IMG/VR virus record: IMGVR_UViG_2541047899_000008
Strand: one strand, 5' to 3'
DNA: 8,515 nucleotides
Source: a virus
Lineage: Duplodnaviria; Heunggongvirae; Uroviricota; Caudoviricetes
In this document: positions 3,001-6,000 of the stretch, one piece after another
Layout of the letters: each line of letters begins with the position of its first letter
How positions within the stretch are numbered: the first letter of the stretch is position 1
Program-made: the position numbers

Positions 3001-6000
3001 CTCCTAAGCAGGGCGGGGCAACCGTATCTGGTGACTATATTTATCTGGCCACCCCACAAGTAGAAAATGGGCCTTGTGTATCATCTTTTATTATATCAGG
3101 AGCGACGGCGGCGACCCGCGCAAGCGATATAGTTACAGTTCCAATTAAGAATAATCTTTATAATCTTCCTTTTACGGTTCTTTGTGAGGTACATAAGAAC
3201 TGGTATAAAACGCCAAATGCAGCGCCACGTGTTTTTGATACCGGCGGTCATCAAACCGGAGCGGCTATTATTCTTGGCTTCGGTCGTTCAACAGATTACG
3301 ACGGATTTCCTTATTGCGATATTGGAGGAGCTAACAGACGGGTAAACGAAAACGCATCGCTTGAAAAAATGGTTATGGGGATGCGTGTAAAGTCAGAGCA
3401 GTCTACGTGCTCAGTAAGTAACGGGCATATATCCAGCGAAACAAAAACCACATGGTCCTGTATTCAGAACACCGCAATTATCCGTATTGGAGGCCAGACT
3501 ACAGCCGGGTTACGTCATTTATTTGGTCATGTCAGGAATTTCAGAATATGGCACAAGGCATTGACTGATGCTCAGGTGGGGGAGTCAATCTAATGAAAGA
3601 TTTAACACTCAAATTTGCAGACAGGGCCGACTTTTCGGCCTTTATGGAGAGCACTGGCTATTATGATGACGAGTCGATGCAGGATGATATTCTTATTGAC
3701 GTGATAGGTAACGTGTACAAAGAAACCGGAGAACTGACTGAAGATGGCGAACCGGTATGTGTTAAGGAAGACGGATATTTTGTAAACGTGCGCATCATTA
3801 ATGATGCAAAAAAATCGTCAATATTCGATAAATACGCGGTTGTTGTTGAGCATCAACTTCGTGGCTGGATGTGAGGGAGACAAATGGCTACATCGACAGT
3901 AATTCCAGGAGATATCACCAAGCTAAAGGGAGATGTCAGTAAAGCTAAGGAAGATATTTCATCAATTAGCGGAAAAGTATCAACGCTTCAGACTGATATG
4001 GACAGTGCAAAGCAGGATATCAGTACCAGATACACGAAAACTGAAGTGGATAATAAGCTGAAAAACAAAGTGGAAGTGAACGATCTGGAAAGCGGTCGTT
4101 ATGGCGGAGATTTTTATCCACTGACAGGTCGTGAAGCGTTTTATTTATGGAATTTGGCCACGACTACAGCTGCGGCAAACCTTTATCTTAATCCTGACCC
4201 CGCAATTTCGTCTGTGCTGCGGTCAACATCGTCTATCCGCTATAAACATTCAGTAGAGACGATAGATTCAGAGCACGCCGATCTCATTTTCAAGATGCGC
4301 CCTGTGTGGTACAGGTCGCAATGCGAAAATGACAGGCGCGATTGGGGATTCTATGGATTGATTGCCGAGGAAGTGGGAGAAATTGCCCCTCAGTTTGTAC
4401 ACTGGCGACCAGCTAACGAAGATGATGCACCGGAAACCATTTCCAGCAATGGCCTTGTTGCCGAAGGCGTAATGTACGAACGTCTGGTTGTTCCACTGAT
4501 TCACCATATCCAGAAGCTGACTGAAAGAGTTGATGAACTTGAGTCAGAATTAAAGTTGTTATTAACTTCCCGAAGCGATATTGGATAAAGGAGGAGTAAT
4601 GGATATAACACCTTTCCTTCACGCGCTGTGTGCTGTGGCTGCGCAGGTACTGGTTGGTCTTTTTACCGGGAACTGGGCTTACGGAGCGATAGCCGGTTGT
4701 ACGTTCTTCATTGCGCGTGAACATACCCAGGCAGAATATCGCTGGATTGAAATGTTCGGGCATGGCAAGCGGATTAACATGCCGTGGTGGGGCGGTTTTG
4801 ATCCACGTGCATGGGATATGGCAAGCATGATGGATTTTGCTGTGCCGGTGGTGGCGTGTCTGCTGGTCTGGCTGTTGGTTAATCGCTAAAGTCATCATAT
4901 CAGGGGAACACAGCAGGGGCTGGTTTTACATAAAAAAGCCCACCAGTGAGGTGGGCAACAGGAATGATTAATTATCTCAAAGAGAAACATCATGTTTCTC
5001 TTTGCAACTTCTAACATGAAAATGTGGAGAAATAATGGAGTTTATATTAACTGGTGATTATGCAACCAACTTCTTATGCAAAACAATATAGTTATTTATA
5101 CCTGACTGGTCTTATGCATACACCTAAATAGGTGTATTACGTAATGAAACAGACTGGCGAATATGTTTGAGCAAACTCCACTGAACCGCAGACGTTATGG
5201 TCATGTTGCATAGTGTTTTGGAATATAAAGAATTATATATGAGTTCGCTGTTTGTAACCTGAAAAACAATAACGAATGTTATAATAAACTTGTTTGTTGT
5301 GCTGCTTTCACATTTTCTCATTAATCTTACCAGTAATATTTTTGTTGCTTTGTTGTTTCTGTTTTTTTATAAAAAAGAGGTGGTGCAGAGGAGGAAATAT
5401 AGTGGATAAAAAACTAATTGCATTTTTGTGCACACTTATAATTACTGGTTGCTCGGATGGGATCGGTGATTCACCTTCGCCACCGGGAAAGAATGTAGAA
5501 TTAGTCGGAATTCCAGGGCAAGGTGTCGCTGTTGCTTCAAATGGCACATCTCCAACACTTGGGAGCAATAGTACTGACTTTCCTGATGTTTCAATAATGA
5601 GCACAGGGGGAGCGATGCTTACTGTTTGGGCCAGACCTGTCCGTAACTGGCTTTGGGGATATACTCCGTTTGATTCAGTAAGTTTTGGAGAGAATCGGAA
5701 CTGGAAGGTTGTGGATGGCAAAGATGCCGGTACAGTGAAATTTGTTAATGTTGCCCAGGGGACTTGCATGGAGGCCTTTAAAAACGGGGTGATACATAAT
5801 ATCTGTGATGATAATTCGTTATCTCAGGAGTTTCAGTTACTGCCTTCTACTAATGGTAATGTGCTTATAAGAAGTAGTGCCTTGCAGACGTGTATAAGAG
5901 CAGACTATTTAAGCAGAACTATACTGTCACCGTTTGCTTTTACAATCACCCTTGAGAAATGCCCTGGTGCAAAAGAAGAAACGCAAGAAATGCTATGGGC

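What the first reader, a model, noticed from the sequence alone, without database searches (positions are those of the whole stretch)
3884..4588. Stand-alone short protein with coiled coil plus S74 self-cleaving chaperone domain
S74 intramolecular chaperone domains normally sit at the C-terminus of large tail fiber or tailspike proteins, trimerise the fiber and then auto-cleave. Here the domain (STSSIRYK...RPVWYR...GLIAEEVGEIAPQFV...VDELESELKLL) follows only about 115 residues of heptad-like coiled coil, as a separate gene downstream of stf. After cleavage the product would be a roughly 115-aa trimeric coiled-coil stub. That could be a minimal accessory fiber or adaptor, a remnant of a swapped fiber, or a trans-acting chaperone for the stf C-terminal domain.
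Basis: partly seen in the sequence, partly recalled or inferred. Interest (0 to 1): 0.5.

Follow-up and report, generated by a model that had tools for sequence, protein, structure and literature searches.

The report
Miniature self-cleaving side-tail-fibre protein
This is an intact, widely conserved 234-residue phage tail-fibre gene made of a short coiled coil plus a self-cleaving folding domain; it always travels with one type of side tail fibre, it is not a gene fragment, and its exact job has never been tested.

Summary
Window 3884-4588 (+) is a complete 234-aa ORF. Its C-terminal half (aa 116-234) is a Peptidase_S74 intramolecular-chaperone domain: it scores above Pfam's cut-off, has an invariant Ser116/Lys121 dyad, and its model matches solved chaperone-domain structures.

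The N-terminal part is only partly coiled coil. There are about six heptads (aa 10-51), followed by a roughly 50-aa fibre-tip segment.

It is not a remnant. The gene is full length in 740 of 5,426 complete E. coli genomes and intact in 81 of 81 viral contigs. dN/dS is 0.07-0.2. Homologues of the same size occur in virulent Drexlerviridae.

It is always the third gene of a cassette: a lectin-like Stf C-terminal domain, a 93-aa protein, then this gene. The cassette is shared by lambdoid, N15-like, Drexlerviridae and Queuovirinae phages and does not depend on the cdt cargo. A 346-351-aa allele shares only the first 20-30 residues.

Best reading (about 0.5): a self-trimerising, self-cleaving mini-fibre whose 115-aa stub docks on the Stf end or p93 through its conserved N-terminus. 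A trans-acting chaperone or cap remains a live rival (about 0.22). I found no experimental data. Interest is modest: a new variant of a known kind.

The parts
2298..3593 (+). C-terminal roughly 430 aa of Stf ('StfC'), a lectin-like domain related to the RcGTA head-spike fibre. It is the first element of the conserved cassette. Its core is hypervariable; its first roughly 80 aa and last roughly 36 aa are conserved.
   Evidence: NCBIfam NF048003 E=2.2e-14. PDB 6tb9_F3 E=1.1e-7. Alignment A3. Identity ranges from 38 to 100% across loci that carry the same gene 3. Mosaic boundaries fall at window 2298 and about 3480.
3593..3874 (+). p93, an acidic 93-aa protein (pI 4.3) of unknown function. It is the second cassette gene. 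Its start overlaps the stf stop codon (TAATG).
   Evidence: phrog_1361 E=2.7e-46, unknown function. No hit in Pfam, NCBIfam or PDB. A copy or a divergent 89-aa homologue is present in every locus examined. The AF2 model is low-confidence, pLDDT 57.
3884..4588 (+). Gene 3, the finding: a 234-aa S74-bearing mini tail-fibre protein (26.3 kDa precursor).
3884..3958 (+). Conserved N-terminal motif, aa 1-25 (MAT.T.IP.DI..LK..VS). It is shared with the 346-351-aa allele and with the Drexlerviridae homologues, and is the proposed docking segment.
   Evidence: Invariant columns M1 A2 T3 T5 I7 P8 D10 I11 L14 K15 V18 S19 in alignment A1. DNA homology to Tritos and ESCO3 stops at window 3927 and 3948. tblastn with the 31-aa N-terminus finds both alleles.
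3908..4066 (+). Predicted alpha-helical coiled coil, aa 9-61. It has six clean heptads with I/V/M at position a. Its length varies between homologues in 7-aa steps.
   Evidence: AF2 helices 9-49 and 52-60. Heptad table. 7-aa deletions in the 227-aa and KarlJaspers forms. Weak matches to two coiled-coil families, Lpp and the P22 gp26 tail needle.
4082..4228 (+). Pre-cleavage fibre-tip segment, aa 67-115. It includes invariant N99 and near-invariant T94 and R113, and ends at T115.
   Evidence: Conserved together with the chaperone domain in 36 sequences and in long fibres P0184-P0191. Low pLDDT in the monomer model; trimeric fibre regions are expected to model poorly as monomers (inference).
4229..4585 (+). 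S74 intramolecular chaperone domain, aa 116-234. The predicted nucleophile is S116 (4229-4231) and the general base is K121 (4244-4246). The C-terminal helix spans aa 198-232.
   Evidence: PF13884 at aa 116-172. S116 and K121 invariant. Foldseek hits 7dc3, 3gud and 3gw6. BFVD gives 140 hits with E<=1e-3; all listed hits that carry a name are S74-domain, tail-fibre or other structural proteins.
4599..4889 (+). p96, a small protein with two hydrophobic segments and a strong Shine-Dalgarno sequence (AGGAGG). It follows gene 3 in lambdoid prophages but is absent from the Drexlerviridae and Queuovirinae cassettes, so it is a neighbour rather than a core part.
   Evidence: phrog_1443 E=4e-58. Present in lambda-like phages that lack gene 3. 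Hydropathy. Homology to prophages without cdt ends at about 4885.

Best explanation
Gene 3 encodes a genuine but miniature tail-fibre subunit. Three chains would associate through the C-terminal S74 chaperone domain (aa 116-234). That domain would template folding of the short tip segment (aa 67-115) and zip up the N-terminal coiled coil. It would then cut itself off between T115 and S116 using the S116/K121 dyad, leaving a 3 x 115-aa coiled-coil stub.

The gene is the third member of a mobile three-gene distal side-fibre cassette: the lectin-like Stf C-domain, then p93, then gene 3. I propose that the stub stays on the virion, docked by its conserved first 20-25 residues to the conserved C-terminal tail of Stf and/or to p93. 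This position would work as a plug-in socket. The 234-aa allele fills it with a minimal, invariant tip. The 346-351-aa allele fills it with an extra roughly 110-aa globular domain.

Shown here: the domain identity, the conserved dyad, purifying selection, the cassette linkage and the mosaic boundaries. Inferred: trimerisation, cleavage, presence in the virion and the docking partner.
For: **Domain and dyad.** PF13884 scores above its cut-off. S116 and K121 are invariant in 36 sequences. The model matches solved chaperone-domain structures.

**Functional gene.**
- 746 of 5,426 complete E. coli genomes hold a match, and 740 of them cover at least 80% of the gene.
- Protein clusters at 90% identity have 2,928 and 650 members.
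- 81 of 81 ORFs on IMG/VR contigs are intact, at 227-241 aa. dN/dS is 0.07-0.2 in both the mature and the chaperone halves.
- Indels in the coiled coil are 7 aa long.
- Homologues of 221-245 aa at 56-61% identity occur in virulent Drexlerviridae.

**Cassette.** An Stf C-domain and p93 (or a divergent homologue) precede gene 3 in all 80 IMG/VR loci with enough upstream DNA to judge. The same holds in KarlJaspers, SECphi27, ESCO3, JenP1/2, the N15-like PhiR46_1 and E. coli B REL606.

**Socket pattern.**
- The short and long alleles share only aa 1 to about 30 plus a divergent S74 domain.
- DNA homology to Tritos and ESCO3 ends at codons 15-22 and resumes at the stop codon.
- The block made of the last roughly 36 Stf codons, p93 and the gene 3 N-terminus stays together across all the comparisons in which DNA-level homology was detected.
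- Either allele pairs with the same Stf C-domain. The window and Tritos are 99% identical there. The short allele pairs with Stf C-domains that are 38-100% identical.

**Fibre nature.** Residues 48-234 occur in cis at the C-terminus of ordinary long fibres. One is a 735-aa lambdoid Stf, P0184.

**Analogy.** In DT57C, LtfB carries its own S74 domain and is thought to dock on LtfA. Its first 45 aa match phiEco32 gp15, which forms a branched fibre with gp14 (PMC4728585).
Against: - There is no direct evidence that the protein is in virions. I found no proteomic or genetic study of it.
- Only monomer prediction was available, so trimerisation and docking are untested. The model of aa 58-114 is unreliable.
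- The mature tip is nearly invariant among E. coli prophages (zero non-synonymous changes in three of five comparisons), while the Stf C-domain is hypervariable. That is unlike a typical receptor-binding tip and would equally suit a generic assembly factor.
- The conserved Stf tail could be conserved simply because it forms the core strands of the lectin-like fold.
- The conserved junction could be only a recombination linker.
- Stand-alone trans chaperones that resemble these chaperone domains do exist (PMC10579305).
- Some Warwickvirus genomes carry a frameshifted copy.
Confidence: 0.5

Rival explanations
1. Gene 3 is a trans-acting assembly chaperone or transient cap. gp3, alone or with p93, would bind the distal end of Stf, help its lectin-like C-domain fold, trimerise or stay masked, and then be absent from the mature virion. 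This is how BASEL and several other genome records annotate it ('putative lateral tail fiber chaperone', 'chaperone of endosialidase').
For: - It is encoded in the position usual for fibre chaperones, within the stf operon.
- It is highly conserved while the Stf C-domain varies, as expected of a generic helper that recognises the conserved ends of that domain.
- There is a precedent. Alteromonas phage V22 gp27 and A5 gp9 are separate proteins that resemble these chaperone domains and act on the fibre encoded upstream (PMC10579305).
- This Stf has no Tfa-type chaperone gene nearby.
Against: - The S116/K121 cleavage dyad and the pre-cleavage segment are invariant. A pure trans chaperone would not obviously need either.
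- The chaperone domain's natural substrate, the tip segment at aa 67-115, is its own upstream sequence, exactly as in long fibres that carry the module in cis.
- A heptad-quantised coiled coil and a conserved N-terminal tag are features of structural fibres.
- The same Stf C-domain works with two alleles whose mature parts and S74 subtypes differ.
- p93, not gene 3, occupies the slot immediately after stf and overlaps its stop codon.
- The Stf C-domain is a globular head-spike-fibre-like domain, not the triple beta-helix that these chaperone domains are known to template (PMC8326128).
Confidence: 0.22
2. Gene 3 is a self-processed small fibre or protein with a role not tied to Stf. It could be an independent short fibril attached elsewhere on the tail tip. 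Alternatively, the released fragments could act in the cell.
For: Nothing links gp3 physically to Stf. Short S74 proteins of about 210-270 aa with other N-termini occur in unrelated viruses and metagenomes.
Against: The cassette moves between phage groups, and in the Drexlerviridae the fibre N-terminus is unrelated to the lambdoid one. The only partners that always accompany gene 3 are the Stf C-domain and p93. Gene 3 was not seen without them in any locus examined.
Confidence: 0.1
3. Gene 3 is a non-functional remnant: the 3' end of a longer fibre gene left behind by a module swap.
For: The best PHROG profile is 1,385 positions long and the ORF matches only positions 1147-1383. Residues 48-234 equal the C-terminus of long fibres. 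Gene 3 persists in the defective Qin-like prophage of E. coli B, next to a disrupted stf.
Against: - It has its own ATG and Shine-Dalgarno sequence, and a distinct conserved N-terminus absent from the long fibres.
- It is intact in 81 of 81 viral contigs and full length in 740 E. coli genomes.
- dN/dS is 0.07-0.2.
- Against the Drexlerviridae, dS is saturated while protein identity is still about 60% and the architecture is unchanged.
- Indels in the coiled coil come in heptad units.
Confidence: 0.03

Closest known systems
C-terminal intramolecular chaperone domains (Peptidase S74 / ICA) of phage fibres and spikes: K1F endosialidase endoNF (3GW6), GA-1 gp12 (3GUD), T5 pb1, DT57C LtfA (8HQZ), and eukaryotic MyRF (7DC3)
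   Same: Profile match, Ser/Lys dyad with +5 spacing, predicted fold including the long C-terminal helix, position at the C-terminus, and a preceding conserved tip segment.
   Different: The mature part is only 115 aa: about 55 aa of coiled coil plus about 50 aa of tip. In the classical examples it runs to hundreds or more than a thousand residues carrying an enzymatic or receptor-binding domain. Here the protein is a separate gene and there is no evidence for a long triple beta-helix.
Second subunit of branched lateral fibres: DT57C/DT571/2 LtfB on LtfA, and phiEco32 gp15 on gp14 (PMC4728585)
   Same: A separate gene downstream of the main fibre gene, its own S74 domain, and a short conserved N-terminal segment shared between otherwise different proteins and thought to dock on the main fibre.
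   Different: LtfB is a large receptor-binding protein that determines host range. The 234-aa allele has almost no room for a binding domain and is nearly invariant. tblastn with the N-terminus found no T5-like phages. An extra small gene, p93, sits between the two fibre genes.
Stand-alone chaperones that resemble intramolecular chaperone domains: Alteromonas phage V22 gp27 and A5 gp9 (PMC10579305)
   Same: Small separate proteins (195-240 aa) encoded downstream of a lectin-tipped fibre, with a body that resembles these chaperone domains. They are proposed to help folding and to cap the fibre transiently.
   Different: Those proteins are described as chaperone bodies that are separate proteins rather than self-cleaved domains. 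Gene 3 keeps the invariant Ser/Lys cleavage site, a homologous pre-cleavage tip and a coiled-coil N-terminus, and it is not adjacent to stf.
Lambda Stf/Tfa system
   Same: Same genomic slot (J, lom, stf, then helper genes) and the same Stf N-terminal domain, PF08400.
   Different: The Stf C-domain is of a different type, resembling the GTA head-spike fibre. No Tfa homologue is present. Two unrelated downstream genes, p93 and gene 3, replace it.

Membership tests
Peptidase S74 / intramolecular chaperone auto-processing domain | Significant match to the family profile at or above the curated threshold | tested here: met
   PF13884 E=4.2e-6, 27.4 bits against a 22-bit cut-off, aa 116-172, profile positions 1-57 of 58. 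The Drexlerviridae homologues score 22.4-22.8 bits and the long allele 52-53 bits.
Peptidase S74 / intramolecular chaperone auto-processing domain | Ser nucleophile at the domain start with a Lys five residues downstream (endoNF S911/K916, MyRF S587/K592) | tested here: met
   S116 and K121 are invariant in 36 aligned homologues. They align with TSGIEYK of DT57C LtfA. The dyad definition comes from PMC8326128.
Peptidase S74 / intramolecular chaperone auto-processing domain | Chaperone-domain fold ending in a long helix that forms the trimeric coiled-coil core | tested here: met
   In the AF2 monomer model aa 120-232 have pLDDT 73-93, with helix 198-232. Foldseek hits are 7dc3 (E=3e-5, prob 1.0), 3gud and 3gw6. 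BFVD gives 140 hits with E<=1e-3; all listed hits that carry a name are S74-domain, tail-fibre or other structural proteins.
Peptidase S74 / intramolecular chaperone auto-processing domain | Located at the C-terminus of a trimeric fibre or spike, directly after a beta-structured stalk that it templates | tested here: inconclusive
   The domain is C-terminal, and the preceding 50 aa are homologous to the pre-cleavage segment of long fibres. The structure of that segment could not be modelled as a monomer (pLDDT below 50).
Peptidase S74 / intramolecular chaperone auto-processing domain | Trimer-dependent autoproteolysis that releases the domain | not testable with these tools
   Needs expression of the wild type and the S116A and K121A mutants. 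Predicted fragments are 12.5 and 13.8 kDa.
Docked second subunit of a branched or segmented lateral fibre (LtfB-like) | Separate gene in the fibre operon, with a short N-terminal segment conserved across otherwise different distal proteins | tested here: met
   Alignment A1 shows that aa 1 to about 30 are shared by the 234-aa and 346-351-aa alleles. The allele boundary falls at codons 15-22.
Docked second subunit of a branched or segmented lateral fibre (LtfB-like) | Carries a sizeable, variable receptor-binding domain | tested here: not met
   The short allele has only about 50 non-helical mature residues, and these are nearly invariant among prophages (zero non-synonymous changes in three of five comparisons). 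The long allele has a mature part of 226 aa.
Docked second subunit of a branched or segmented lateral fibre (LtfB-like) | Physical attachment to the primary fibre in the virion | not testable with these tools
   No multimer prediction was available, and no proteomic or EM data were found.
Trans-acting tail-fibre chaperones (Tfa of lambda/Mu/P2; V22 gp27-like) | Sequence membership in a known Tfa or chaperone family | tested here: not met
   Gene 3 and p93 have no Tfa, Caudo_TAP or other chaperone family hit in Pfam, NCBIfam or PHROGs.
Trans-acting tail-fibre chaperones (Tfa of lambda/Mu/P2; V22 gp27-like) | Required in trans for folding of the fibre encoded upstream | not testable with these tools
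   Needs co-expression or knock-out experiments.

The most novel reading that the evidence does not exclude
The cassette is a cross-family plug-and-socket system. p93 and the conserved Stf tail would form a universal socket, and any protein that starts with MAT.T.IP.DI..LK would plug into it. The 234-aa allele would then be either a 'blank plug', or a new kind of self-removing helper. As a helper, it would dock by its coiled coil, use its S74 trimer in trans to organise or cap three lectin-like Stf C-domains that have no chaperone domain of their own, and then cut itself loose. That would be the first S74 domain shown to act on a different polypeptide.
Probability: 0.2. Interest if true: 0.6.

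Novelty: new variant of a known kind. Interest (0 to 1): 0.35.

Why it matters
The gene is present in about one in seven complete E. coli genomes, including laboratory E. coli B, and in three groups of coliphages used in phage research. It is annotated inconsistently as a tail fibre, a chaperone or a hypothetical protein, and I found no experiment on it.

If it is a docked mini-fibre, the p93 and N-terminal-motif junction is a natural, portable attachment site. That site could be used to graft receptor-binding modules onto lambda-type or T1-type side fibres.

If it acts in trans, that would extend what S74 chaperone domains are known to do.

At 26 kDa it would also be one of the smallest natural substrates for studying chaperone-driven trimerisation and self-cleavage. 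In neither case does it bear on the cdt toxin cargo next to it.

Tried and rejected
- **N-terminal protein search.** A protein search with only the 47 N-terminal residues, meant to find other cargo domains behind the same motif, returned only short fragments. A tblastn of the 31-aa N-terminus against phage genomes worked instead.
- **Read-through fusion of p93 and gp3.** The two genes are in the same frame in nearly all loci. However, several spacers contain TAA or two stop codons, and KarlJaspers is out of frame. I rejected this idea.
- **p93 structure.** The AF2 model is too poor to search with (pLDDT 57). A profile of p93 found nothing in the PDB.
- **PDB profile search.** A profile of 36 gene 3 homologues found only DT57C LtfA. 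The classical chaperone-domain structures were reached only by fold comparison.
- **Literature.** Searches for proteomic or genetic data on this gene in Drexlerviridae, phage 9g, SECphi27, lambdoid phages and the BASEL papers found only annotations.
- **Remnant hypothesis.** Rejected on the selection and conservation evidence.
- **Link to the cdt cargo.** Rejected. The same stf, p93, gene 3 and p96 block occurs without cdt in E. coli B and in all 80 IMG/VR loci. Homology to those loci ends at window position about 4885.
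Full report
**What the window is**

The window is the right end of the tail module of a lambdoid prophage, followed by toxin cargo. The genes are:
- lom (554-1153)
- stf (1212-3593, 793 aa)
- a 93-aa gene, here called p93 (3593-3874)
- the gene of the finding, here called gene 3 (3884-4588, 234 aa)
- a 96-aa protein with two hydrophobic segments, p96 (4599-4889)
- cdtA, cdtB and cdtC
- a reverse ORF with no family match

Gene 3, the stf C-terminal domain, p93, p96 and cdtB are each 100% identical in protein to a prophage in E. 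coli strain 3-72.

The ORF is complete and has a GGGAG ribosome-binding site. Several results identify the S74 domain.
- Pfam Peptidase_S74 matches aa 116-172 above the gathering score, 27.4 against 22 bits.
- The sequence T115|S116-S-I-R-Y-K121 aligns with the cleavage motif region of DT57C LtfA.
- S116 and K121 are invariant in 36 homologues.
- They have the +5 spacing of the endoNF S911/K916 and MyRF S587/K592 catalytic dyads (PMC8326128).
- In an AF2 model, aa 120-232 are confident. Its best solved-structure matches are the MyRF ICA domain, the GA-1 gp12 chaperone and the endoNF chaperone.
- Against predicted viral structures it gives 140 hits with E<=1e-3; all listed hits that carry a name are S74-domain, tail-fibre or other structural proteins.

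Predicted self-cleavage would give fragments of 12.5 and 13.8 kDa.

The two corrections are these.
- The coiled coil is only about 55 residues. It has six clean heptads with I/V/M at position a, within predicted helices 9-49 and 52-60. Residues about 63-115 are a non-helical segment that accompanies this chaperone subtype wherever it occurs.
- Gene 3 is separated from stf by p93.

**It is a working gene, not a leftover**

- The DNA matches in 746 of 5,426 complete E. coli genomes, and 740 of these cover at least 80% of the gene. E. coli B REL606 and BL21 derivatives are among them.
- The two main protein clusters hold 2,928 and 650 sequences.
- In 80 IMG/VR loci plus reference phages, all 81 ORFs that start at the conserved N-terminus are intact. 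They are 227-241 aa long, and 64 of them are exactly 234 aa.
- Pairwise dN/dS is 0.07-0.2, and it is low in both the mature half and the chaperone half.
- Length differences inside the coiled coil are 7-residue deletions. This is the signature of a helix register under constraint.
- Virulent Drexlerviridae such as KarlJaspers, SECphi27, tunus and swan01 carry homologues at 56-61% identity. These have the same size and architecture, although synonymous sites are saturated.

**It belongs to a three-gene cassette**

In every locus examined, gene 3 follows two things.

The first is an Stf C-terminal domain of about 430 aa. This domain is related to the head-spike fibre of the Rhodobacter gene transfer agent (NF048003, PDB 6TB9).

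The second is p93. Five loci that seemed to lack p93 have a divergent 89-aa homologue instead.

The cassette occurs in lambdoid prophages, an N15-like phage (PhiR46_1), Drexlerviridae, and Queuovirinae (ESCO3, JenP1/2). In the Drexlerviridae the fibre's N-terminal half is unrelated to the lambdoid one.

The cassette does not depend on the cdt genes. They are absent from all other loci examined, and DNA homology to those loci stops just after p96.

**Alleles and mosaic boundaries**

The same position can hold a 346-351-aa allele, as in Tritos, 2G7b, HannyBb, PhiR46_1, ESCO3 and JenP1/2. That allele shares only the first 20-30 residues (MATSTVIPDDIKTLK.DVSKLK) and a divergent S74 domain.

DNA comparisons place the recombination boundaries at four points:
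- the start of the Stf C-domain (window 2298)
- about 36 codons before the stf stop codon (about 3480)
- codons 15-22 of gene 3 (3927-3948)
- the gene 3 stop codon (4579)

Three elements therefore stay together wherever DNA-level homology was detected: the Stf tail, p93 and the gene 3 N-terminus. Meanwhile the core of the Stf C-domain (38-100% identity) and the body of gene 3 assort freely.

One block, window 2298-3948, is 95.8% identical in DNA to the virulent Queuovirinae phage ESCO3.

**Relation to ordinary fibres**

A search of 1.84 billion representative proteins gave 3,556 hits with E<=1e-3. Residues 48-234 appear at 50-61% identity as the C-terminus of conventional fibres of 539-1,243 aa. 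One of these is a 735-aa lambdoid Stf that carries the module in cis.

Gene 3 is therefore built only from generic fibre parts: an N-terminal tag, a coiled coil, a shaft repeat (YTKTEVD), a tip and a chaperone domain.

Other short S74 proteins (about 210-270 aa) with different N-termini exist in metagenomes and in giant-virus sequences.

**Mechanism**

My best-supported reading has four steps.
1. The chaperone domain trimerises the protein.
2. It folds its own tip segment and the coiled coil.
3. It cleaves at T115|S116.
4. The 3 x 115-aa stub remains attached to the distal Stf cassette through its conserved N-terminus.

The position would then behave as a socket that accepts either a minimal plug or a larger second binding module. 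The closest functional analogy is LtfB docking on LtfA in phage DT57C (PMC4728585). Steps 1-3 follow from family membership. Step 4 is an inference from the linkage and mosaic patterns. My confidence is about 0.5.

The main rival is a trans-acting chaperone or cap for Stf, at about 0.22. In its favour:
- the gene's position in the stf operon
- its near-invariance next to a hypervariable Stf C-domain
- the precedent of stand-alone chaperones that resemble these domains in Alteromonas phages (PMC10579305)

Against it:
- the invariant cleavage dyad
- a tip segment that is the chaperone's own substrate
- the structural-fibre features of the N-terminal half
- compatibility of one Stf C-domain with two different alleles

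The remnant reading is rejected.

**Novelty and interest**

The protein meets the sequence and fold tests for the S74 family. Its architecture is an unusually small variant: a separate gene with a 115-aa mature part, inside a conserved three-gene cassette. Databases annotate it inconsistently, and I found no experimental work on it.

A specialist would recognise the type, so the surprise is modest. The open question, structural stub or trans chaperone, can be settled by the simple experiments listed under next steps.

Noticed in passing
window 2298-3593: The C-terminal roughly 430 aa of this lambdoid Stf are homologous to the head-spike fibre of the Rhodobacter capsulatus gene transfer agent (NF048003 E=2e-14; PDB 6tb9 E=1e-7). 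The ends are conserved and the core is hypervariable, at 38-100% identity between prophages that carry the same downstream genes.
   Followed up: partly
window 2298-3948 vs L005 (phage ESCO3) 2899-4548: A 1.65-kb block is 95.8% identical in DNA between this temperate lambdoid prophage and a virulent Queuovirinae (Nonagvirus) phage. It covers the Stf C-domain, p93 and the first 22 codons of gene 3, and points to recent exchange between temperate and virulent phages.
   Followed up: partly
window 3593-3874: p93 is a conserved acidic 93-aa protein (pI 4.3) found in every cassette. It has no match in Pfam, NCBIfam or the PDB and its AF2 model is poor (pLDDT 57). Its start overlaps the stf stop codon (TAATG). 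It could be the real Stf chaperone or an adaptor.
   Followed up: partly
window 3872-3886 and equivalent spacers in L001-L091: p93 and gene 3 are in the same reading frame in almost all loci, separated by one stop codon plus 3-4 codons. Some spacers contain TAA or two stops, and KarlJaspers is out of frame. A read-through fusion is therefore unlikely.
   Followed up: yes
L092 (phage orkinos) 3201-3939; L093 (JLBYU19) 2352-3090: In these Warwickvirus genomes gene 3 is split into 86-aa and 168-aa ORFs by one extra C in a C5/C6 run at about codon 83. AV105 and JLBYU10 probably have the same split. It could be a sequencing error, phase variation, or a loss that is tolerated on K-12 hosts.
   Followed up: partly
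window 4599-4889: p96 is a 96-aa protein with two hydrophobic segments and a strong Shine-Dalgarno sequence (phrog_1443). It is conserved immediately after the tail-fibre genes in many lambda-like phages, including phage 21, even where gene 3 is absent. Its function is unknown.
   Followed up: no
window 4933-4956: A GC-rich hairpin (GCCCACC-AGTGA-GGTGGGC) is preceded by A6, so it reads as a terminator on the minus strand. It lies just past p96, where homology to prophages without cdt ends (about 4885). It probably marks the boundary between the phage module and the cdt cargo.
   Followed up: no
window 5402-7502: The cdtABC operon. RefSeq types CdtA and CdtC as type IV and CdtB as type I, so it looks like a mixed or intermediate CDT. 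The listed TTG ORF start at 5294 is probably too far upstream. The RefSeq cdtA start corresponds to window 5402.
   Followed up: no
window 7766-8515 (minus strand): A complete 249-aa ORF downstream of cdtC on the opposite strand has no hit in Pfam, PHROGs or NCBIfam. GC content is low here (35-37%). It is annotated as a hypothetical protein in strain 3-72.
   Followed up: no
window 1560-2290: The Stf shaft is a long Ala/Ser/Thr/Lys-rich region with internal repeats of about 250 nt. In one search, window 1752-2013 and 1952-2189 each match a second, shifted site in the same related stf genes. AT skew is strongly positive here (up to 0.59).
   Followed up: no
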